Source: Escherichia phage vB-Eco-KMB38
Sequence record: OR525701.1
Strand: one strand, 5' to 3'
DNA length: 64,000 bases
Shown here: in pieces, positions 3,236 to 45,532 of the stretch
How positions within the stretch are numbered: position 1 is the stretch's first letter
Layout: each line of letters begins with the position of its first letter
The notes under the pieces: generated by a model
What the model saw: only the letters and a program-made list of their open reading frames with translations
The model's database searches: none
What the model was told of the DNA's origin: nothing
Translations under genes and position numbers: made by a program

Positions 3236-3922
3236 TTAGAAGTCGTGAGTAGAATCGGCTTCCATCGCAATAACATAACTTACTTGAGAGCTTTCAAACT
3301 TAGCTGCAACTTTATCACCAGCTCCCCACAACATTACTTTATAATTACCTGGCTGGATTTTCATATTAGCCATATTGATTACGAAGTTAAAGTTATTAGA
3401 ACCGTCATAATCAGTAAGAGTCAAAGAATACTTAGGACGAGTTAGTCCGGAATCTTCAACTTTATTATAGCCATTGATAACAATTTTACCATCTTTATTT
3501 GTAATAGCAATTGTATCAATCTGAAGACCACGTGAAACTCGAAGCAATTGTTGAAGGTCTTCAGCTTTAATTTCAGTAATCACAGAAGCCACTGGGAATT
3601 GAATTGGCTTATTAGGAAAAACAATGGTGCTCTTGTCAGCGGCAGGCCAATAAACTGTGGAACGTGTATCTGCAATTTTAATATTGCCATCAGTATGCAT
3701 TGAAATTTCGGCATCATCAGACACTAGACTCAAAATGCTTAAGAAGCTATTCAAATCATAAAGTGCTACGTCAAAATCAATTTCATCAGAGATATTTGCT
3801 TCCGCATAAGTGGTGCCATTAACTGCACGAGTCATAATAAATTTACCTTGACTCAGCAGAATGCCAGAGTTAATAGAGGCAAAGTTTTTCAGAATAGCGA
3901 TAGTATCTTTAGACAGTTTCAT
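3236..3922 (-). CDS. 45: sliding clamp gp45
   Basis: MKLSKDTIAILKNFASINSG...EADSTHDF, close to T4 gp45 along its length; start set at the MKLSKD Met. Confidence 0.9.
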   Translation of the reverse strand: MKLSKDTIAILKNFASINSGILLSQGKFIMTRAVNGTTYAEANISDEIDFDVALYDLNSFLSILSLVSDDAEISMHTDGNIKIADTRSTVYWPAADKSTIVFPNKPIQFPVASVITEIKAEDLQQLLRVSRGLQIDTIAITNKDGKIVINGYNKVEDSGLTRPKYSLTLTDYDGSNNFNFVINMANMKIQPGNYKVMLWGAGDKVAAKFESSQVSYVIAMEADSTHDF

Positions 3923-3964
3923 TTTATTTCCTTTCAAGACAATTCAAAGTTTATAACAAATTTA

Positions 3965-4381
3965 TTATGCAGCAACCATCTGCTTTTTAATAGCTTCAGG
4001 CAGTGATTCAATATATTCTGGAATTTTAGAAGCAACAATTTCGCCAGCTGCAATTAGTTGTTCGTCGGCATCAACACAGTAAAAATCTTCAAGGCGTTCA
4101 GAACCGTCTTTATCAAGAACGATTTTAGCACCTGCTTCGATAGAATCTTTATAGTGCTTACGCATCAAATGAATCCACATATCAGACACATCGTTATCAA
4201 TAAAGCCATAAATCATAAAACGAGTTTCTTGTGGCAAAGATTGGAGTTTTTTAGCACTTGCGTCATCACAATGCAGGACCCATGCTTTACGAACACGATT
4301 ATGGTTATGTGGGTTAGCGTCAGTACGGATAGAAGTAACTTTCAGATCAGCAGCAGTGAAACCTTTAGCAGTAGTAAACAT
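3965..4381 (-). CDS. rpbA: RNA polymerase binding protein RpbA (by position)
   Basis: 138 aa ORF between 45 and 46 as in T4; sequence not independently recognised. Confidence 0.55.
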   Translation of the reverse strand: MFTTAKGFTAADLKVTSIRTDANPHNHNRVRKAWVLHCDDASAKKLQSLPQETRFMIYGFIDNDVSDMWIHLMRKHYKDSIEAGAKIVLDKDGSERLEDFYCVDADEQLIAAGEIVASKIPEYIESLPEAIKKQMVAA

Positions 4382-4393
4382 ATTATTTCTCTC

Positions 4394-4594
4394 TTATTCG
4401 TAGAAGTCGGTAACTGTCCATGCGGAATTGCGATTAGACATTATTTTATTATACTCATCTTTAAAAGCAGATTTGAGCATTTGTTCAGTAACAATATGTT
4501 CTTCACCTGAAAACGTATTGGTCAAAACATATTTTTTAATTTCAGGGACAACGAGAAGATGTTGGCCGGTTGAATACTCCATGTTGTTCTCCAT
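4394..4594 (-). CDS. hypothetical protein (T4 45.2 position)
   Basis: 66 aa ORF in same orientation between rpbA and 46. Confidence 0.5.
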   Translation of the reverse strand: MENNMEYSTGQHLLVVPEIKKYVLTNTFSGEEHIVTEQMLKSAFKDEYNKIMSNRNSAWTVTDFYE

Positions 4595-4636
4595 TTAATT
4601 TGATGTGGTCATTATAACCACATCATGTTAAAGCGT

Positions 4637-6325
4637 TTATGAAACAGTCATCACAGTAAATCGTCCAACTTTGCTCATTTGAAGATGTTGTCCATAAGCT
4701 TGTGGGTCATGGTCTCTGTGACTAATTATAAACACGTTTGCATCGGTTAGAGAGTTAAGAATTGTTGAAATAGCTTTAATACCTTCAGAATCAGTCGCGG
4801 AATCCATGACTTCGTCCATAATTAATGTATTGATTCTAACACCAGAGACCTTTTCAGCAATATCTCGCCATGTAAACAACAATGCGATATCGATACGTGC
4901 CTTTTCACCTTGACTAAATGAAGCATAACTGAACTCTTCACGGCCACGTGATTTTATAGATTCATTGAATTCTTCGTCAATAGAAAACACGTAATCAGCT
5001 TCCATGATTTTAAGATAATGGTTAATCTGCTTGTTGAACAGAGGCACATATTTTTTAATGATAGCACCTTTAATACCAGAATCTTTTAACATATCTGTGA
5101 TAATACCACGATGGTATTTTTCAAGAACGATATCCGATTTTGTTTTAATGATTTTATCAAGTTCTTTTTGAAGCAAAGCTATCTCATCGGCATGGTCGAT
5201 AAATTCCGCCGAGGCTTGTTCTATTGCAGCTTTAACTTTCTTAGCTTTATCAATAGTGGCAATCATTGCTTGTTTCTTGGTGCGAATATCAGATGCAAGG
5301 TCCTGCTTAGTCTTAACATTAGCTCTATATTCGTCCACTAGGACACTCAGATTATCTCTGTGGCAGGTAAGTTGCTCGAATGAGTGATTACATTCATGAA
5401 GCTTATCGGTAATCTTAGAGACAATAGGATCACCCTGGTGCAACTGTGATGCGCAAGTAGGACATGTACCGCCATCATGATACATCTTAATAACTTTGTT
5501 GTATGAGTCAATTTTAGATTTAATCAAGAATGCTTCTTGTCCTATCTTGTTGAATGCCTCAGTAGGGTCTTCATCAAGAACGATATTAAGTAGTCGCTCA
5601 TTAGCTTCTTCGATCTCTGCTTTTAATGAACGAGCTTCTTTGGCTAGGTCGTCATACATATTCTGTAGACGCGCTACATTATCACCAGATAATTTCTTTT
5701 GACGTTCGATATTTTCGTTATAAATCTTAATTTGTTGGATAATACCATCTTTCTTGGCATCGAGAACTTGTCCCTGGGAATTAAGTTCTCGAACTTGAGA
5801 CTTATTGATTTTATCCATTTCAGCGAGTGTGCCAACTTCTAAAAGGTCTTCGACAAGTTTTCTACGAGCAGGGGTGCTAAGAGCCATGAAAGGGGTATAC
5901 CCTGCCGTCCCAAGCACAACGATTTGTTTAAAAGACGCGTATGACATTCCGATGCTACGTTCAAATTCTTCTTGGAAGTCACGACTGCTGGCAGATTCAT
6001 CGAGACGAACACCGTCAACGGAGATTTCGAAAATATTGGGCTTTTGGCCGCGTCTAATGAAGTATTTTTTATCATCGAATTCCATCCAAAGCTCAACTAA
6101 GAGCTCTTTCTTGTTCGTGCTATTAATGATTTGTCCTTTCTTAACATCACGAAATGGTTTACCGAAAAGTCCGAAAGTAATGGCTTCTAACATCGTAGAT
6201 TTACCACCGCCATTTTTACCGGTGATTAAGGTCTTTTGGACTTTATCTAATTGGATATCGATAGGATTCCCACCTACCGACATGATGTTTTGATAACGAA
6301 CACGATTTAATTTAAATGATTTCAT
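4637..6325 (-). CDS. 46: recombination endonuclease subunit gp46 (Rad50/SbcC-like ATPase)
   Basis: 562 aa, Walker A GKNGGGKST, long coiled-coil middle, CPTC zinc hook, C-terminal signature and D-loop region. Confidence 0.9.
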   Translation of the reverse strand: MKSFKLNRVRYQNIMSVGGNPIDIQLDKVQKTLITGKNGGGKSTMLEAITFGLFGKPFRDVKKGQIINSTNKKELLVELWMEFDDKKYFIRRGQKPNIFEISVDGVRLDESASSRDFQEEFERSIGMSYASFKQIVVLGTAGYTPFMALSTPARRKLVEDLLEVGTLAEMDKINKSQVRELNSQGQVLDAKKDGIIQQIKIYNENIERQKKLSGDNVARLQNMYDDLAKEARSLKAEIEEANERLLNIVLDEDPTEAFNKIGQEAFLIKSKIDSYNKVIKMYHDGGTCPTCASQLHQGDPIVSKITDKLHECNHSFEQLTCHRDNLSVLVDEYRANVKTKQDLASDIRTKKQAMIATIDKAKKVKAAIEQASAEFIDHADEIALLQKELDKIIKTKSDIVLEKYHRGIITDMLKDSGIKGAIIKKYVPLFNKQINHYLKIMEADYVFSIDEEFNESIKSRGREEFSYASFSQGEKARIDIALLFTWRDIAEKVSGVRINTLIMDEVMDSATDSEGIKAISTILNSLTDANVFIISHRDHDPQAYGQHLQMSKVGRFTVMTVS

Positions 6326-6805: not shown

Positions 6806-7821
6806 TGTGTTGCCTCAATATAAAGTTCGTTGGAATATTTGACCAGCGCTTCTCTGTCTTCGTCTGAGATATCTGGAATCGCGTCAATATATTCTTTAAT
6901 GATATCTTGAAGTGATTTAATCTCGATTTCCTGGTCATCATCAGATTCAACACTGTTATCAACTTTAGAAACCATACGAAGAGAGTGAACTACTTTTTCA
7001 AGTTCAGATTCAAACTTAGTCAACTCTGAATCAATTTCTGATACTATAACACGTAAGGCTAGATTAGTATAATCAGAATAATTGATTTTGCCTTTAAACG
7101 GATAAGTGATTCGTCGATGCCATGTTGTTTCATTAGGAATAAATTCCATACGTTCAACATCAGTGTCAAATACCCAGAATCCGCGCGGGTCATTCTCATC
7201 ACCTGCAGTAAGTGTCCATGGTGTCCCAATATATTTGACGTTAGCAGCTTCAGAGATTGTGTGGAAGTGGCCGGACCAGACTTGTTTATAGGTCTTTAAG
7301 AAATCAGGTTCAAGCCCATGAGACTTCATTCCTTTATAGAAATAAAAGCCGTTTAATTCCCAGTGACCAACACAATACGCGGCAGAAGAAGTCTTGATGT
7401 GCTCTAAGATTTCACCTGTATTTTCTTCACACATCCATGGAACGATATCAATCAAACATCCGCCAAAATCTACAGTAGTCGGATGCTCGTAAATAGTAAA
7501 GTTTTCAAATTGAGTTAACAATTCAGAAACAGTGTTAGGTGTTATTGTATTCTTAAACGCCATGTCATGGTTTCCTATCGTGACATGAACGTGAATGCCT
7601 GCTTTAGAAATCATATCAACGATTTCACGATTGAATTCCATTGTACGATGTGTTATTGCTTTACGGACGTCAAACCAATCGCCGTACTGAATCCAAGTTT
7701 TAATCCCGTGTTTCTTAGAGTATTCAATTGCTTGACGAATACCATCACGTTGAATATCTTGAACCCATGGGTCGTCTTGTTTGACTCCGATATGGAAGTC
7801 GCCTAAGTGCAAAATTTTCAT
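6802..7821 (-). CDS. 47: recombination nuclease gp47 (Mre11/SbcD-like)
   Basis: 339 aa, MKILHLGDFHIG and GNHD phosphoesterase motifs, close to T4 gp47. Confidence 0.9.
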   Translation of the reverse strand: MKILHLGDFHIGVKQDDPWVQDIQRDGIRQAIEYSKKHGIKTWIQYGDWFDVRKAITHRTMEFNREIVDMISKAGIHVHVTIGNHDMAFKNTITPNTVSELLTQFENFTIYEHPTTVDFGGCLIDIVPWMCEENTGEILEHIKTSSAAYCVGHWELNGFYFYKGMKSHGLEPDFLKTYKQVWSGHFHTISEAANVKYIGTPWTLTAGDENDPRGFWVFDTDVERMEFIPNETTWHRRITYPFKGKINYSDYTNLALRVIVSEIDSELTKFESELEKVVHSLRMVSKVDNSVESDDDQEIEIKSLQDIIKEYIDAIPDISDEDREALVKYSNELYIEATQ

Positions 7822-7867
7822 ATTATTTCCTCATTAGTTAATTCATTTTATCATCCGTTTATAAAGC

Positions 7868-7896
7868 AAAAAAAAAAAGGAACTCCGAAGAGTTCC
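7868..7896 (-). terminator. intrinsic terminator upstream of gene 47
   Basis: ggaactc-ttcg-gagttcc hairpin followed by an 11-nt U run on the minus-strand transcript. Confidence 0.65.
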
Positions 7897-8069
7897 TATC
7901 CACATAGTACACCGTACAGAGGCTCATTTGAACTTTTAAATCGAATGGGCTTGTATGTAATAGTTCCTTCGGCTTTAGCTTTATCATAAGACTCTTTAAA
8001 ACGTCTCATTCTTTCTGCTTTGCCTTTACGGATTTTATCGAAATTTTCAGAAGTCGGGATGTTCGTCAT
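7896..8069 (-). CDS. small hypothetical protein (57 aa)
   Basis: ATG at 8067-8069, translation MTNIPTSENFDKIRKGKAERMRRF...; below the ORF-track cutoff; ends in the terminator. Confidence 0.3.
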   Translation of the reverse strand: MTNIPTSENFDKIRKGKAERMRRFKESYDKAKAEGTITYKPIRFKSSNEPLYGVLCG

Positions 8070-8108
8070 GCATAAGCACCTCTCAGAAAATGCCTAAATC
8101 AATTTCTC

Positions 8109-8330
8109 TCATCGTTTCCACCATTTCTTAACTTGAAATGAATCGACCCACACGAGTTGTTTTGGGTCTGCCTTTACAATAGGCGGACAAATTTCTGTAA
8201 TAGAACCGTCGTGATATTCCTTTTCAGAAATTTTAACACAAAGAGGACCACCCAATTTAACGGTGAACCCTGCGTTCAGCTTCAGACGTTTAAACTTTGT
8301 TTGAACTAGCGCCATTAATGATGTCCTCAA
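8109..8330 (-). CDS. hypothetical protein
   Basis: 73 aa ORF; no a-gt-sized gene present here. Confidence 0.4.
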   Translation of the reverse strand: MRTSLMALVQTKFKRLKLNAGFTVKLGGPLCVKISEKEYHDGSITEICPPIVKADPKQLVWVDSFQVKKWWKR

Positions 8331-8613
8331 TAGCCTGACGAGTAGTAACCCACTGGATTTTAATTAACTTGTCATTATACGGTTGTCGTAGAATATCCCG
8401 AGATTTCTTAATAGCATATTCGTAAGCTTCGAAGTTGTTTTGAATTGCTGCTTCTTGAGCATGTGCATAAAGACGGTTTAGTTCAAAACGATTCTTTTTA
8501 AGAATCTTTTCGGATTTTTTACGTGCTTCAGCTTCATTTTTCTTTTGGATTTCTTGTAGCATTTTAGCTACTGCATCTTCTGCTTCTTTATTTTCAATAA
8601 TCTCGGTAGTCAT
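8290..8613 (-). CDS. hypothetical protein
   Basis: 107 aa ORF, charged helical composition. Confidence 0.5.
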   Translation of the reverse strand: MTTEIIENKEAEDAVAKMLQEIQKKNEAEARKKSEKILKKNRFELNRLYAHAQEAAIQNNFEAYEYAIKKSRDILRQPYNDKLIKIQWVTTRQAIEDIINGASSNKV

Positions 8614-8614
8614 A

Positions 8615-8830
8615 TTATCTCATTAAATTAAAATAAAAACGTCCATCCTCTTCAATACAGAACTCATATTCAACTGGAGTCCCGTTTATCGAAAATGACA
8701 CGTCATGTGGGTTCAAAGGGTCGATGTCAAAATTAATTTTAAATTCACGACCCAACAGTTTTACCAAATAAGGGATTGCTTCGTCAAAAGGTTCTTCTAA
8801 GTAGTTAGAGATGTCAATTGTCATCCTCAT
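8615..8830 (-). CDS. hypothetical protein
   Basis: ORF 8615-8908 trimmed to the internal Met (MRMTIDIS) so it does not overlap gene 55. Confidence 0.45.
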
Positions 8831-9389
8831 ATAAAAAATCCAAACTAGGCGAATCGCTAACAACTTCCTTCTTTTCAGCCCCAGGAGCTTTATAAGCGGA
8901 TTCTTCATAATGCGTCATTTTATCGTAGATGTCTTGAATAAACGTTTCATCTACCAACGCTACCATATCATCGTCATGACTGTCGTAGACATTATGAACG
9001 AAGTAACTATATTTCTTTGCAACTTCCTTACGTTCTTTTTTGATACGTTGGACAAAAGCATTAAAACAAGCTCGAGTTATGTATGCATGTGGGTTATTGT
9101 ACTTAGTTTCGTCGAAATTATGAAGTCCCTTAATAGAGGCTTCAATCCCATCTGCAATCATCTCCTGCTTCCAAGACTGGGTATATCCTGAAAAGTTGAA
9201 ACGTTTGGACAGGCCTTCGGCGATAAGCATAATTGCTAAACCGATGGTATCATTCTGACGAATAATTTTGTTTGGGTCTTTATTATTTAAGAGCTCCTTT
9301 TTCCACTCGATTATAGCGGCGAGAAGCTCTTTATTATTCACATAGTTATTTTTAGGTTTTTGTTCAGTCATAAGTACCTCTTGGCTCAA
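8814..9389 (-). CDS. 55: late sigma factor gp55
   Basis: [27 protein letters not shown]...SPSLDFLYE, near-identical to T4 gp55 over most of its length. Confidence 0.9.
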
Positions 9390-25944: not shown

Positions 25945-25980
25945 AAAAAGCCCCAACCTTTCGGAAGGGGCTTTGATTAG
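25945..25980 (-). terminator. intrinsic terminator, copy 1 of a 36-bp direct repeat
   Basis: agcccc-ttccgaaaggtt-ggggct hairpin (GAAA loop) then UUUUU on the minus transcript; identical 36 nt at 26568-26603. Confidence 0.6.
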
Positions 25981-26534
25981 TTTTTGTAATATCGTAAAGG
26001 GTTGATATGGAATGAAAGCATTGCGCGTGGAATAGGACGACTCAAAAGACTCTTAAGTTTCCAACCACAGTAAACACGCAGATAAAATGTAATACCACCA
26101 ACCTTAAGATAAGGTATAGCAGCGAATAATCCCCATGCAGACTCGTTCCAAACTAAAAGATATCCATGATGTGCCGGATCAGGAGATCCAGATTTAGTTT
26201 CAGCGTTGCCTTTATAGTGCCATTCTGATGAAGCTTCGCGACCTAAAACATGATACGAAAAATTATATGCTTTGTTGCGCCATAACCAAGCTACGCGTTG
26301 AGCATATTTACCTATAACAGGAATTTTACGTATTTTAGACCAACGTTCAACATGACCACGGTCACCATCGATAGGATTATCGTAAGTCATCATCCAGTCA
26401 AAGCCATAAGGTAGTTTACCTGTTTTTTCACTATGGAATGGAACTACAAATGGTGCTAGAATAATTGCTAAAATCGCTGCGATCCAATCTATAGGAACAA
26501 GAACAACCCAACTTATGTATTTTAAAAATTTCAT
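25977..26534 (-). CDS. hypothetical membrane protein, late-promoter driven (T4 rI.1 position)
   Basis: 185 aa, N-terminal TM segment; TATAAATA late promoter 25 nt upstream; flanked by identical terminator repeats. Confidence 0.55.
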   Translation of the reverse strand: MKFLKYISWVVLVPIDWIAAILAIILAPFVVPFHSEKTGKLPYGFDWMMTYDNPIDGDRGHVERWSKIRKIPVIGKYAQRVAWLWRNKAYNFSYHVLGREASSEWHYKGNAETKSGSPDPAHHGYLLVWNESAWGLFAAIPYLKVGGITFYLRVYCGWKLKSLLSRPIPRAMLSFHINPLRYYKN

Positions 26535-27928: not shown

Positions 27929-28152
27929 TTAGGTTCACCTTCTTTAACGAAATCCGGGTAAGGGTAAAATCCTGAGTAAAACCCTTCACCTTTATGATTG
28001 CTACAACCTTTGTTCGAACAGTAACACCAATAATCAAAATCACAAGCCATTTCGTCATTGCATAAAGCAAAAACTACAGGCCATTCGCATTTTTCGCATT
28101 TAGCACCTGTAAGAATTTTTGTTTGACTCATAGCCATGTCACCTTTAAGCAA
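27925..28152 (-). CDS. hypothetical cysteine-rich protein
   Basis: 75 aa with CEKCEW...C..C.C...C pattern. Confidence 0.45.
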   Translation of the reverse strand: MLKGDMAMSQTKILTGAKCEKCEWPVVFALCNDEMACDFDYWCYCSNKGCSNHKGEGFYSGFYPYPDFVKEGEPK

Positions 28153-28355
28153 TATTCTTCTACATGTTGTTTACGGCCTTTCTTATCAATAAAGGTATAT
28201 TCAACGAATGTTCCGATGTAGTCTTTATCTACATCATGTGGACTATTAATTGGACATTTAGTACGACAAATGCGTTCCCATTGACGAATAATTACTGTCT
28301 TATTCTTTGGGTCATATGGATGTGGATAGTGTATATTCATAACAATGGTTCCCAA
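28128..28355 (-). CDS. hypothetical protein
   Basis: 75 aa ORF. Confidence 0.45.
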   Translation of the reverse strand: MGTIVMNIHYPHPYDPKNKTVIIRQWERICRTKCPINSPHDVDKDYIGTFVEYTFIDKKGRKQHVEEYCLKVTWL

Positions 28356-28834
28356 TCAACAATCACAATTTCTAGTTTAGTGGAATATGTATCTAAAATC
28401 TCTTCGATGACATCCCAGTTTCCACCACCGATACCTGCACCAATTCTTGGCATATAAATTACAGGCTTTGTTATCTTATTCTTTCCGAATTCATTTAATT
28501 CTATTATACAATTCATTAAAGCAGAGTACTCAAAATTAGGTCCCGGCTCAAACTGTGTATAAAGATTAAAGCAATAAGCTTTATGGGTCTTAAAATATTT
28601 TTCATAAACTGAATAAGTCCCGAGTTTAGACTCATCTCCATATACAGTTTGAAGTTTATCGGCTTCCAGAATTTTTGGATAAGCCTTTGCTAATTGTCCT
28701 GCTACACCGGCGCCCATTGTATGAAAACAATTACACCCATGAGCAATATTATTACCTTTAGAAAACAGGGCGACAATATCGCCCTTGATATAGTTTTTAA
28801 TCACTTGCTGCAAGTCCTCTAGTATAAGAGTCAA
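28337..28834 (-). CDS. macro-domain (ADP-ribose binding/processing) protein
   Basis: NIAHGCNCFHTMGAGVAGQLAKAYP aligns to the macro N-x-x-N...GGGVxGAI loop and PRIGAGIGGGN to the second glycine loop (compare E. coli YmdB VNAANPSLMGGGGVDGAIH / FPAISTGVYGYP). Confidence 0.65.
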   Translation of the reverse strand: MTLILEDLQQVIKNYIKGDIVALFSKGNNIAHGCNCFHTMGAGVAGQLAKAYPKILEADKLQTVYGDESKLGTYSVYEKYFKTHKAYCFNLYTQFEPGPNFEYSALMNCIIELNEFGKNKITKPVIYMPRIGAGIGGGNWDVIEEILDTYSTKLEIVIVDWEPLL

Positions 28835-29144
28835 CTAGGCGGTCTACCATAGAATTGCATGCTGCCTTATCTTTAGGTTCCGCCACCGAGCATTCTAATA
28901 TTTGCCATTTTTTATGATATCGTTTAATTAAGGTAGACGCCTTGAACCTACTAGACGCCCCATCTTTTTCTCCGTCTTTATACGCATATAACAATTTTTG
29001 TGAAAAATCTACTTTACACTCTTGACTTTTACCACAATAATCAGACGCCGTTCTGTTTGTATACTCCGTTACATCAGTATATGTAGTATTAGCAAGAGCG
29101 TTAAATGAAACCAAGCCAACTATTAAAGCCAACATTTTGGTCAT
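28797..29144 (-). CDS. hypothetical secreted protein
   Basis: 115 aa with signal peptide MLALIVGLVSFNALA. Confidence 0.45.
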   Translation of the reverse strand: MTKMLALIVGLVSFNALANTTYTDVTEYTNRTASDYCGKSQECKVDFSQKLLYAYKDGEKDGASSRFKASTLIKRYHKKWQILECSVAEPKDKAACNSMVDRLVDSYTRGLAASD

Positions 29145-34565: not shown

Positions 34566-35024
34566 TTATAGGAGGGTAGTGAGCACCTTATATAATGATT
34601 TGCCCATTACATATTCCCATTGAGAAGGTTTAATTAAAGCGAATGCATCAAATTCAGGAATCTGACGTCCGTCCGGGAATGTATGATAGGAATTACAAAC
34701 ACTATTTCTGAATTGCTCGTGCTCTACAGGGATGGTATATAGGAACAGGTGAATATTCTTATTGTCTGAGTAATGATGTTCACCTAGGTCTTTCAGGAAG
34801 GCAGGGTCATATTGTGTAAACCCAGTTTCTTCTTCGCATTCACGAATAGCGGCTTCGATAGGAGATTCGCCGGGCTCGACACGACCTTTAGGAATATCCC
34901 ACCGATGAGCTAAAGAACCTTTAGGACGAGAACCAGTTACACGCCCCATGAATAATTCTTTATCTTCGGTAAGGAAAATAATACCAGCTGATAGTTCTTT
35001 CACTTTATTTTTCTTACTCATCAT
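34566..35024 (-). CDS. nudE: Nudix hydrolase NudE
   Basis: Nudix box GRVEPGESPIEAAIRECEEETG; start at ATG overlapping upstream stop (ATGA). Confidence 0.75.
   Translation of the reverse strand: MMSKKNKVKELSAGIIFLTEDKELFMGRVTGSRPKGSLAHRWDIPKGRVEPGESPIEAAIRECEEETGFTQYDPAFLKDLGEHHYSDNKNIHLFLYTIPVEHEQFRNSVCNSYHTFPDGRQIPEFDAFALIKPSQWEYVMGKSLYKVLTTLL

Positions 35025-44846: not shown

Positions 44847-45532
<686 letters not shown>

What the first reader, a model, noticed from the sequence alone, without database searches (positions are those of the whole stretch)
28337..28834. Phage-encoded macro domain protein near tk
The 165-aa product has the two macro-domain glycine loops in the right order and spacing: HGCNCFHTMGAGVAGQLA (compare VNAANPSLMGGGGVDGAIH of E. 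coli YmdB) and PRIGAGIGGGN (compare FPAISTGVYGYP). Macro domains bind or hydrolyse ADP-ribose adducts. In a phage this could reverse host ADP-ribosylation-based defence (DarT-type DNA ADP-ribosylation), degrade ADP-ribose-derived immune signals, or regulate the phage's own ADP-ribosyltransferases. It sits in a run of small accessory genes and shares the region with NudE (Nudix) and a GrcA-like protein.
Basis: partly seen in the sequence, partly recalled or inferred. Interest (0 to 1): 0.65.

Follow-up and report, generated by a model that had tools for sequence, protein, structure and literature searches.

The report
Phage T4 Tk.4/AdfM macrodomain ortholog

Summary
A macrodomain protein is encoded on the minus strand at 28337..28804. 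The real start is the GTG at 28804 (155 aa), not the TTG at 28834. It passes Pfam Macro (28.8 bits, cut-off 22). It gives a confident AlphaFold model (pLDDT 95.7) whose best solved-structure matches are TARG1, Poa1p, BT1257, DarG and SCO6735.

The window is a Mosigvirus (RB69-like) T4-family coliphage. The gene sits at the tk.4 position between vs and tk.3. It is 97% identical to RB69 Tk.4 and 84% identical, without gaps, to T4 Tk.4.

T4 tk.4 was shown in a November 2025 preprint to be required for resistance to DarTG2 and was renamed adfM.

- The family carries an invariant Gln at the position of the catalytic Lys of DarG and TARG1, as in the thymidine-ADP-ribose hydrolase SCO6735.
- It is a standalone lineage, distinct from DarG and from the PhiKZ protein that is also called AdfM.

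In passing, a conserved GC-rich hairpin followed by a T-run lies inside the 5' end of the gene.

Interest is low.

The parts
28337..28804 (-). tk.4 / adfM coding sequence (155 aa, GTG start, TGA stop): a single-domain macrodomain protein
   Evidence: ORF; 84% gapless identity to T4 Tk.4; 97% to RB69 Tk.4, which RefSeq also annotates with a GTG start; JK45 annotates the same 468-nt CDS; Pfam Macro
28802..28804 (-). GTG start codon. It overlaps the end of vs (GTGATTAA), with GAGG 11 nt upstream.
   Evidence: DNA alignment with T4 (ATG) and RB69 (GTG); sequence context; homologs align from residue 11 of the 165-aa ORF
28700..28741 (-). First ADP-ribose-binding loop, residues 22-35 (HGCNCFHTMGAGVA). 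It includes invariant His22, Gly23, Asn25, Cys26, Gly33 and Ala35.
   Evidence: Invariant columns in 60 homologs. Asn25 is kept in 79/79 viral loci. Asn25 aligns with PhiKZ AdfM Asn23, whose mutation lowers activity. The loop follows strand 20-25 in the model.
28553..28567 (-). N-L-Y-T-Q motif (residues 80-84) at the end of strand 75-84. Gln84 occupies the column of catalytic Lys80 of DarG and Lys84 of TARG1.
   Evidence: Profile, BLASTP and MAFFT alignments; Gln in 60/60 homologs, 77/79 viral loci and 76/80 bacterial loci
28415..28450 (-). Second glycine-rich (diphosphate-binding) loop, residues 119-130 (PRIGAGIGGGNW)
   Evidence: Aligns directly with PRIGCGLAGGTW of SCO6735 (5e3b) and PRIGCGLAGGKW of BT1257. 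Pro119, Ile121, Gly122 and Gly124 are invariant. The loop follows strand 115-118 in the model.
28767..28785 (-). GC-rich hairpin (AGGGCGAT-ATT-GTCGCCCT) followed by GTTTTCT, inside the 5' end of the CDS. Side observation; role unknown.
   Evidence: Terminator-like scan; -13 kcal/mol, z = -3.06; conserved with synonymous covariation in the T4-like subclade; no Rfam family
28797..29144 (-). vs (valyl-tRNA synthetase modifier), the upstream neighbour, which overlaps the tk.4 start
   Evidence: 98% identical to JK45 Vs; same order as in T4 and RB69
28128..28340 (-). tk.3-like small ORF (70 aa), the downstream neighbour. Its ATG overlaps the tk.4 stop (ATGA).
   Evidence: ORF list; PHROG 2008 matches from residue 6 of the listed ORF; JK45 annotation

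Best explanation
The gene is the Mosigvirus ortholog of T4 tk.4/adfM. It encodes an 'orphan antitoxin' macrodomain that lets the phage grow on hosts carrying the DarTG2 toxin-antitoxin defence.

DarT2 ADP-ribosylates thymidines in single-stranded phage DNA and so blocks replication. The phage protein most likely binds the ADP-ribose between its two glycine-rich loops and hydrolyses the thymidine-ribose bond, restoring normal DNA.

The chemistry is probably not that of DarG. Where DarG and TARG1 have a catalytic lysine, this family has an invariant glutamine (Gln84), held near an invariant asparagine (Asn25) and histidine (His22). That is the arrangement described for SCO6735, in which the glutamine positions the distal ribose and a water molecule starts the reaction.

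What is shown and what is inferred:
- Shown here: macrodomain fold and class, orthology to T4 Tk.4, and the Gln-for-Lys substitution.
- Shown by others, for T4 only: the gene is required against DarTG2.
- Inferred: the same role in this phage, the enzymatic removal of ADP-ribose from DNA, and the SCO6735-like mechanism.
For: Fold and class:
- Pfam Macro above its cut-off.
- AlphaFold pLDDT 95.7 with the canonical strand/helix order.
- Foldseek top hits are TARG1, Poa1p, BT1257, DarG and SCO6735, all at probability 1.00.
- Profile hits to the same proteins at E = 1e-17 to 1e-11.

Orthology:
- 84% gapless identity to T4 Tk.4 and 97% to RB69 Tk.4.
- Identical gene order: tk, tk.1-3-like ORFs, tk.4, vs, vs.1, regB.

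Function of the ortholog:
- T4 tk.4 was the only DarTG2-specific transposon hit, and its knockout sensitises T4 to DarTG2.
- T2 and T4 stay DarTG2-resistant without adfA and adfN, so another factor was expected (PMC11825919).
- T5, the DarTG2-sensitive control phage, has no member of this family (best E = 0.078).

Mechanism:
- Gln84 aligns with TARG1 Lys84, DarG Lys80 and the PhiKZ AdfM Lys, and is near-invariant.
- SCO6735 has Gln85 at that position. It cleaves thymidine-linked ADP-ribose on DNA, protects against DarT, and is inactivated by Q85A and nearly so by N27S (PMC9411070).
- Its Gly126/Gly128 loop aligns directly with Gly122/Gly124 here.
- A separate phage macrodomain, PhiKZ gp104, removes DarT2 marks from DNA in vitro (PMC13309987). 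This shows that the strategy works biochemically.
Against: - No enzymatic assay exists for T4 Tk.4 or this protein. The preprint itself says only that enzymatic removal 'seems likely'.
- The genetic evidence is for T4, not for a Mosigvirus, and comes from a preprint.
- I could not align SCO6735's Gln85 residue by residue with Gln84. The equivalence is transitive, through TARG1 Lys84 (plus PMC9411070).
- By position, SCO6735's DNA-positioning Lys34 and Lys89 do not appear to be conserved here.
- The N-terminal H-x-C-N-C loop is closest to that of yeast Poa1p, an ADP-ribose-1''-phosphate phosphatase, so a small-molecule substrate cannot be excluded from sequence alone.
- SCO6735, DarG and TARG1 catalytic mutants also inhibit DarT by binding, so protection need not be purely enzymatic.
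Confidence: 0.8

Rival explanations
1. The protein neutralises DarT2 mainly by binding and blocking the toxin (stoichiometric inhibition), not by hydrolysing ADP-ribosylated DNA.
For: Catalytically dead SCO6735 (Q85A), DarG (K80A) and TARG1 (K84A) all inhibit DarT activity in vitro, SCO6735 most strongly (PMC9411070). The other phage anti-DarT factors, AdfA and AdfB, act by binding the toxin (PMC11825919).
Against: The residues kept invariant across 60 homologs, 79 viral loci and 80 bacterial loci are the ADP-ribose-site residues His22, Asn25, Gln84, Gly122 and Gly124. None of the 80 bacterial relatives examined has a detectable DarT2 homolog within 5 kb (five loci were also checked with Pfam), so conservation is better explained by catalysis. 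The protein lacks DarG's C-terminal DarT-binding domain (155 aa against 338 for the NCBIfam DarG model).
Confidence: 0.08
2. It is a small-molecule enzyme, as its old annotation says: an ADP-ribose-1''-phosphate phosphatase or O-acetyl-ADP-ribose deacetylase acting in nucleotide housekeeping. The DarTG2 phenotype would then be indirect.
For: T4 and RB69 records call it 'phosphatase; contains A1pp phosphatase motif', and PHROG 335 is named 'phosphatase'. Yeast Poa1p is among the best sequence and fold matches. Its His23 and Ser30, both probed by mutation according to the PDB entry titles, correspond to His22 and Thr29 here.
Against: tk.4 was the single DarTG2-specific hit in T4 and is dispensable on a plain K-12 host. 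No source of ADP-ribose-1''-phosphate is known in T4 infection (my own knowledge, not tested). The 'phosphatase' name is a transferred annotation, not a measurement.
Confidence: 0.06
3. It erases or tunes ADP-ribosylation made by the phage's own transferases (Alt, ModA, ModB) on host proteins or RNA.
For: T4-family phages encode three ADP-ribosyltransferases (PMC8120803). TARG1-class macrodomains can act on protein and on nucleic-acid phosphate ends (PMC11833690).
Against: Alt, ModA and ModB are arginine-specific. Macrodomains of this class are not known to cleave arginine-linked ADP-ribose (my own knowledge). SCO6735 was inactive on 5'-phosphate and 2'-OH RNA/DNA ADP-ribosylation in the results of PMC11833690. 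The family also occurs in many phages and bacteria not known to encode Alt/Mod-type transferases (my reading of the hit lists; Alt/Mod genes were not searched for there).
Confidence: 0.04
4. It degrades ADP-ribose-derived immune signals such as Thoeris gcADPR, or other NAD-derived messengers.
For: This is only the general ability of macrodomains to bind ADP-ribose derivatives. nudE (a Nudix hydrolase) and an acb1/57B homolog lie in the same early region.
Against: No member of the ALC1/TARG1-like class is reported in the papers read to cleave cyclic ADP-ribose isomers. The T4 screen linked tk.4 specifically to DarTG2.
Confidence: 0.02

Closest known systems
T4 Tk.4 = AdfM (anti-DarT factor Macrodomain), NP_049723; RB69 Tk.4, NP_861803
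   Same: Same length (155 aa). 84% (T4) and 97% (RB69) identity without gaps. Same position between vs and tk.3, and all family-invariant residues are shared. This is the same gene.
   Different: GTG rather than ATG start, and a different overlap with the vs stop than in T4. The DarTG2 phenotype has been measured only for T4.
SCO6735 of Streptomyces coelicolor (PDB 5e3b), a standalone thymidine-ADP-ribose DNA hydrolase
   Same: Standalone single macrodomain of the ALC1/TARG1-like class. It has Gln at the 'catalytic lysine' position plus conserved His, Asn and G-x-G loop residues, is not encoded next to darT, and protects against DarT.
   Different: Only about 21% identity (Foldseek). It is bacterial and expressed from a RecA-NDp promoter (PMC9411070), and its DNA-positioning Lys34 and Lys89 appear not to be conserved here. 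The Gln-Gln equivalence is transitive, not directly aligned.
DarG antitoxin macrodomain (T. aquaticus 5m31/5m3e, M. tuberculosis 5m3i, Thermosipho DarTG 7omu)
   Same: Same fold class and the same presumed substrate, thymidine-linked ADP-ribose on ssDNA. The conserved Asn and glycine loops are shared.
   Different: DarG has catalytic Lys80 where this protein has Gln84. DarG also has a C-terminal DarT-binding domain and is encoded beside darT, and neither applies here. The NCBIfam DarG equivalog scores 31.5 bits against a cut-off of 250.
PhiKZ gp104, also named AdfM (chimallivirus anti-DarT2 macrodomain)
   Same: A phage-encoded single macrodomain that counters DarTG2. For PhiKZ, removal of DarT2's ADP-ribose from DNA was shown in vitro (PMC13309987).
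   Different: A different lineage. PhiKZ AdfM matches only DarG in the PDB (E = 1e-24 to 1e-17) and has the FPTK..WR lysine motif. It shares only a 23-residue BLASTP match with the window protein and is imported into the phage nucleus. Two unrelated acquisitions carry the same name.
BT1257 (PDB 2fg1/2afc), human TARG1/OARD1 (4j5s) and yeast Poa1p (6lfq)
   Same: These are the best sequence and structure neighbours. BT1257 shares the H-x-C-N...Q pattern, and Poa1p shares the H-x-C-N-C loop.
   Different: TARG1 uses a Lys84/Asp125 dyad, where this protein has Gln84 and Gly126. Poa1p is described as a phosphatase. BT1257 has no assigned function.
AdfN (T4 gp30.3), a NADAR-family orphan antitoxin against DarTG1
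   Same: The same strategy in the same phage group: a lytic phage carries an antitoxin-like ADP-ribosyl-DNA hydrolase without the toxin (PMC11825919).
   Different: An unrelated fold (NADAR). It is specific for guanosine-linked ADP-ribose and does not counter DarTG2.

Membership tests
Macro domain (Pfam PF01661) | Profile score at or above the curated gathering cut-off | tested here: met
   28.8 bits against a cut-off of 22; residues 32-146 of the 165-aa ORF cover profile positions 2-117 of 118
Macro domain (Pfam PF01661) | Three-layer alpha/beta/alpha fold with a central mixed beta-sheet | tested here: met
   AlphaFold model with pLDDT 95.7 and pTM 0.91, six strands and five helices in the canonical order. 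Foldseek probability 1.00 to more than 50 solved macrodomains, TM up to 0.81.
Macro domain (Pfam PF01661) | Two glycine-rich loops in the right places (after the second strand and after the fifth) forming the ADP-ribose diphosphate site | tested here: met
   MGAG at residues 30-33 follows strand 20-25, and IGAGIGGG at 121-128 follows strand 115-118. Both align with the loops of ADP-ribose-bound TARG1, Poa1p, SCO6735 and DarG.
Macro domain (Pfam PF01661) | Binds ADP-ribose | not testable with these tools
   Needs a binding assay or a co-crystal structure
T4 Tk.4 / AdfM orthologous group | Full-length high identity to T4 Tk.4 | tested here: met
   130/155 identical with no gaps; 97.4% to RB69 Tk.4
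T4 Tk.4 / AdfM orthologous group | Conserved position between vs and tk.3 in the tk-regB early region | tested here: met
   Same order in the window, T4, RB69 and JK45
T4 Tk.4 / AdfM orthologous group | Required for growth on DarTG2-carrying hosts | not testable with these tools
   Shown for T4 only. Consistent with the absence of the family from DarTG2-sensitive T5.
DarG antitoxin (NCBIfam NF048014; PADLOC DarG) | Equivalog score at or above the curated cut-off, i.e. a full two-domain protein | tested here: not met
   31.5 bits against a cut-off of 250. Only profile positions 4-146 of 338 are matched. PADLOC DarG scores 33.2 bits over positions 4-145 of 329.
DarG antitoxin (NCBIfam NF048014; PADLOC DarG) | Catalytic lysine (Lys80 in T. 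aquaticus and M. tuberculosis DarG) | tested here: not met
   Gln84 occupies that column; Gln in 60/60 homologs and 77/79 viral loci
DarG antitoxin (NCBIfam NF048014; PADLOC DarG) | Encoded next to a darT toxin gene | tested here: not met
   The neighbours are vs and tk.3. None of 80 bacterial relatives has a DarT2 homolog within 5 kb by phmmer, and Pfam found none in five loci. The probe was a single DarT2 sequence, so sensitivity is limited.
ALC1/TARG1-like macrodomain class | Closest sequence and structure neighbours are TARG1, DarG, SCO6735 and Poa1p rather than MacroD or PARG types | tested here: met
   MacroD-like viral macrodomains appear only at E = 1e-4 or weaker.
ALC1/TARG1-like macrodomain class | TARG1 catalytic dyad Lys84/Asp125 | tested here: not met
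   Gln84 and Gly126 (Ala or Gly across the family) occupy those columns
SCO6735-type (Gln-type) thymidine-ADP-ribose hydrolase | Gln at the catalytic-lysine position, with Asn and His in the first loop (SCO6735 Gln85, Asn27, His24) | tested here: met
   Gln84, Asn25 and His22 are invariant, and the H-x-x-N spacing is the same. Equivalence to SCO6735 rests on TARG1 Lys84 as the common reference (and PMC9411070), not on a direct alignment.
SCO6735-type (Gln-type) thymidine-ADP-ribose hydrolase | G-x-G in the phosphate-binding loop (SCO6735 Gly126, Gly128) | tested here: met
   Direct phmmer alignment of PRIGAGIGGGNW with PRIGCGLAGGTW of 5e3b
SCO6735-type (Gln-type) thymidine-ADP-ribose hydrolase | DNA-positioning lysines (SCO6735 Lys34, Lys89) | tested here: inconclusive
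   By spacing, the equivalent positions here are about Ala32 and Gly88, not lysines. I had no full SCO6735 sequence to align.
Poa1p-type ADP-ribose-1''-phosphate phosphatase | H-x-C-N-C loop with His23 and Ser30 (residues mutated in PDB entries 6lfs and 6lft) | tested here: inconclusive
   HSCNCNGSWGGG of Poa1p aligns with HGCNCFHTMGAG. The His is kept and Ser30 aligns with Thr29. Phosphatase activity itself is not testable here.

The most novel reading that the evidence does not exclude
The T4-type AdfM may not derive from DarG at all. It would belong to a separate, standalone, glutamine-type macrodomain lineage (H-G-C-N-C ... N-x-Y-T-Q, with an invariant Asp49). The 80 bacterial members of that lineage examined here have no detectable DarT2 homolog within 5 kb.

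If so, the enzyme works without a catalytic lysine, and its natural substrate range could be wider than DarT2 products. It might, for example, remove other base- or RNA-linked ADP-ribose marks. Anti-DarTG2 activity would then be only one facet of a general 'nucleic-acid ADP-ribose eraser' carried by thousands of phages.
Probability: 0.15. Interest if true: 0.5.

Novelty: already known. Interest (0 to 1): 0.2.

Why it matters
The gene shows how lytic phages disarm a DNA-modifying immune system, by carrying the antidote enzyme without the poison. For this window the result is confirmatory. It lets the gene be named tk.4/adfM instead of 'hypothetical protein' or 'phosphatase', and it corrects the truncated or over-long gene models found in some records.

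Two modest new points would matter to people working on ADP-ribosylation. The T4-type enzyme has Gln rather than the DarG/TARG1 lysine at its catalytic position. And two unrelated phage macrodomain lineages have both been named AdfM, so conclusions from PhiKZ gp104 or DarG structures should not be carried over to Tk.4 without testing.

Tried and rejected
1. The TTG start at 28834 (165 aa) was rejected. Homologs, T4, RB69 and JK45 all support the GTG at 28804.

2. A residue-level alignment to SCO6735 (5e3b) was only partly obtained. Querying the PDB with the C-terminal half gave the glycine-loop segment alone. The tool prints only the top five alignments, so the Gln85 region could not be shown directly.

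3. The profile alignment of PhiKZ gp104 to the family HMM is shifted by two residues around the catalytic motif. I did not use it, and relied on the MAFFT joint alignment instead.

4. A search for DarT next to bacterial relatives found none. This used phmmer with one P. aeruginosa DarT2 against all ORFs of 80 loci, plus Pfam on ten neighbours. The single-sequence probe has limited sensitivity, and the loci were pre-selected by the HGCNC and glycine-loop patterns.

5. The sigma-70 promoter scan gave 15 sites against 17.8 expected, so it is uninformative. T4 early and middle promoters are not modelled by the tool.

6. Rfam found nothing around the hairpin.

7. The LeRoux 2022 DarTG paper (PMC9250638) is not held in the library. 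I therefore could not check whether RB69 itself was tested on DarTG2.

8. Membership of the DarG family was considered and rejected (see the membership test). Thoeris-signal degradation and erasure of Alt/Mod marks were considered and found unsupported.
Full report
**What is in the sequence**

The true start is almost certainly the GTG at 28804, giving 155 aa.
- Database homologs align only from residue 11 of the 165-aa ORF.
- T4's ATG aligns with this GTG.
- RB69 RefSeq annotates a GTG start, and JK45 annotates the same 468-nt CDS.

The start overlaps the end of vs (GTGATTAA), and the stop overlaps the start of the next small gene (ATGA). The gene therefore sits in a tightly packed, probably co-translated chain.

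**Which phage and which gene**

The surrounding 3.3 kb is 100% identical to Escherichia phages EP02SG and PTK, and 98% identical to many Mosigvirus (RB69-like) T4-family phages.

The gene order matches T4 and RB69: tk, three small ORFs, this gene, vs, vs.1, regB, then the GrcA-like vs.6, denV, e and nudE. The gene occupies the tk.4 position. Its product is 84% identical to T4 Tk.4 over all 155 residues without a gap, and 97% identical to RB69 Tk.4.

**Is it a macrodomain?**

Yes.
- Pfam Macro scores 28.8 bits against a gathering cut-off of 22.
- PHROG 335 scores E = 9e-67.
- A profile of 60 homologs hits solved macrodomains at E = 1.6e-17 (BT1257), 1e-16 (TARG1), 4e-14 (SCO6735), 4e-13 (M. tuberculosis DarG and yeast Poa1p) and 2e-11 (T. 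aquaticus DarG).
- An AlphaFold model built on that alignment has mean pLDDT 95.7. It shows the canonical strand/helix order, with the two glycine-rich loops following strands 20-25 and 115-118.
- Foldseek matches it to TARG1, Poa1p, BT1257, DarG, the DarTG complex and SCO6735 at probability 1.00.

**What it does**

The T4 and RB69 records have long called Tk.4 a 'phosphatase' with an 'A1pp phosphatase motif'.

A transposon-sequencing study posted in November 2025 found tk.4 as the single T4 gene specifically depleted on a DarTG2 host. It showed that a clean knockout sensitises T4 to DarTG2, and it renamed the gene adfM, anti-DarT factor Macrodomain. That filled a gap left by earlier work: T2 and T4 lacking adfA and adfN are still DarTG2-resistant (PMC11825919).

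DarT2 ADP-ribosylates thymidine in single-stranded DNA, and DarG2-type macrodomains reverse it.

As a small consistency test, I searched all six frames of T5, the DarTG2-sensitive control in both studies. It has no member of this family; the best hit has E = 0.078.

Given 84% identity, conserved synteny and conservation of every family-invariant residue, the window's gene very probably has the same role. Enzymatic removal of ADP-ribose from DNA has not been shown for any Tk.4-type protein; the preprint calls it likely. It has been shown for a different phage macrodomain, PhiKZ gp104 (PMC13309987).

**How it probably works, and how it differs from DarG**

Across 60 homologs these residues are invariant: His22, Gly23, Asn25, Cys26, Gly33, Ala35, Asp49, Gly62, Asn80, Tyr82, Gln84, Pro119, Ile121, Gly122 and Gly124.

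In profile, BLASTP and MAFFT alignments, Gln84 falls in the column of TARG1's catalytic Lys84, DarG's Lys80 and the lysine of PhiKZ AdfM. TARG1's Asp125 corresponds to Gly126. Gln is present in 77 of 79 viral loci and in 76 of 80 bacterial loci.

This pattern matches SCO6735 of Streptomyces coelicolor, a standalone macrodomain that cleaves thymidine-linked ADP-ribose on DNA and protects against DarT. Its Gln85 sits at the DarG/TARG1 lysine position, Q85A abolishes activity, N27S nearly does, and a water-initiated mechanism was proposed (PMC9411070). Its G-x-G loop aligns directly with Gly122-Ala-Gly124 here. BT1257 also has Gln in that column.

I therefore infer a lysine-independent, SCO6735-like mechanism. 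Gln84 is held by Asn25 and positions the distal ribose. The invariant Asp49 is an untested candidate for a further role. The Gln84-Gln85 equivalence is transitive, through TARG1 Lys84, because I could not obtain the full SCO6735 sequence.

**Family membership**

The protein is not a DarG.
- The NCBIfam DarG equivalog scores 31.5 bits against a cut-off of 250.
- Only the macrodomain half of the model is matched.
- There is no C-terminal DarT-binding domain, no adjacent darT and no catalytic lysine.

Its 80 best bacterial relatives are standalone proteins, all but one of 146-186 aa (the exception is 229 aa). They come from Ruegeria, Desulfobacter, Verrucomicrobia, Hymenobacter, Vibrio and others. 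Their neighbours are heterogeneous, and no DarT2 homolog is detectable within 5 kb. The probe was a single DarT2 sequence, and the loci were pre-selected by two family motifs.

PhiKZ gp104, which was independently also named AdfM, belongs to a different lineage. It matches only DarG macrodomains in the PDB (E = 1e-24 to 1e-17) and carries their FPTK..WR motif. It shares only a 23-residue BLASTP match with the window protein. Phages have therefore recruited anti-DarT2 macrodomains at least twice, from different branches of the same structural class.

**Distribution**

tblastn finds a relative in 2,795 of 50,697 phage records. These include T4-like phages of Escherichia, Klebsiella, Salmonella, Vibrio, Acinetobacter and Aeromonas, and also Felixounavirus-type (e.g. 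phages mistaenkt and warpig) and Pseudomonas PAK_P-type phages. Many records already label the gene 'macro domain protein' or 'phosphatase'.

**Rivals**

- Toxin binding rather than catalysis is possible, because dead mutants of SCO6735, DarG and TARG1 inhibit DarT. However, the conserved residues are those of the ADP-ribose site, and the bacterial relatives examined have no detectable DarT nearby.
- The historical phosphatase reading cannot be excluded from sequence, since the H-x-C-N-C loop resembles that of Poa1p. It does not explain the DarTG2-specific phenotype.
- Erasing the marks of Alt, ModA or ModB, and degrading Thoeris signals, have no support.

**Side observation**

Nineteen nucleotides into the CDS lies a GC-rich hairpin, AGGGCGAT-ATT-GTCGCCCT, followed by GTTTTCT (28785..28767, minus strand; -13 kcal/mol, z = -3.06).
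- It is identical in T4, RB69 and a Tequatrovirus whose protein is only 57-58% identical.
- In the T4-like subclade encoding K-G-D-[IL]-[VI]-A-L, all 12 distinct sequences use C at the three wobble positions the stem needs (GGC, [GA]TC, GCC). The loop codon and the last base of the Leu codon vary freely.
- The Lys/Leu pair covaries synonymously: AAG with CTN in ten sequences, AAA with TTR in two, none mismatched.
- One distant ortholog keeps a fully paired stem through GGA...TCC, which also changes Ala to Ser.
- On an alignment of 28 orthologs chosen by identity alone, four of eight pairs show changes on both sides. No shuffle out of 500 reaches the observed covariation, and the observed register beats all slid registers. 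Relatedness inflates such numbers.
- Rfam has no match.

The hairpin could be an intragenic attenuator or an mRNA-stability element between vs and tk.4. I did not pursue it further.

**Verdict**

The finding is already known. The remaining open points are the missing enzymology, the glutamine-type active site, and the naming collision with PhiKZ AdfM. Interest is low.

Noticed in passing
window 28767..28785 (minus strand), inside the 5' end of tk.4: A GC-rich 8-bp hairpin followed by a T-run lies 19 nt after the start codon. It is conserved across T4, RB69, Kagamiyamavirus and Krischvirus orthologs through selected C-ending codons and synonymous covariation (AAG/CTN against AAA/TTR; GGA...TCC in one distant ortholog). 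It is absent from more distant orthologs and has no Rfam match. It may be an attenuator or an mRNA-stability element.
   Followed up: partly
L002 (MW512264.1, Escherichia phage PTK) 4338..4718; window 28337..28717: The GenBank record of the phage that matches the window almost base for base over the 3.3-kb query annotates this gene as a truncated 127-aa 'hypothetical protein' starting at the internal Met30. The GTG start was missed, so the His22/Asn25 loop is cut off.
   Followed up: yes
literature: T4 Tk.4 (bioRxiv 10.1101/2025.11.20.689424) and PhiKZ gp104 (PMC13309987): Two phage macrodomains from different lineages were independently given the same name, AdfM. One is the Gln-type Tk.4, the other the Lys-type, DarG-like gp104. 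They share only a 23-residue BLASTP match.
   Followed up: yes
window 25977..26534 (minus strand): A 185-aa ORF with an N-terminal hydrophobic stretch (PHROG 2143, function unknown) lies just upstream of rI. It is also annotated as a CDS in phage PTK. No CDS of this size is annotated at the corresponding place in RB69 or JK45, so it looks like a variable accessory gene.
   Followed up: partly
window about 44850..45302 (minus strand) and 34569..35021 (minus strand): Homologs of T4 57B/acb1 (the anti-CBASS nuclease, 98.7% identical to the JK45 copy) and nudE (Nudix hydrolase, 98%) lie in the same early-gene stretch. The window therefore holds several nucleotide-signal or NAD-related accessory genes.
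   Followed up: partly
L086 (phage T5, NC_005859) 7448..9095: T5 has no Tk.4-type macrodomain. It does carry two adjacent genes annotated as Sir2 (T5.102 and T5.105). This is a different NAD-related module in the DarTG2-sensitive phage.
   Followed up: no
alignment A1 and viral loci L093-L171; residue 49 of the protein (window 28658..28660): Asp49, in the third helix, is invariant in 60/60 homologs and 79/79 viral loci. It is not conserved in DarG, TARG1 or BT1257. It is a family-specific residue of unknown role and worth mutating.
   Followed up: partly
L026 (Vibrio aestuarianus) 3759..5970: One bacterial relative of the macrodomain sits directly downstream of a phage-type integrase and next to a weak SecB-like ORF. 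This suggests that some bacterial copies ride on mobile elements.
   Followed up: no
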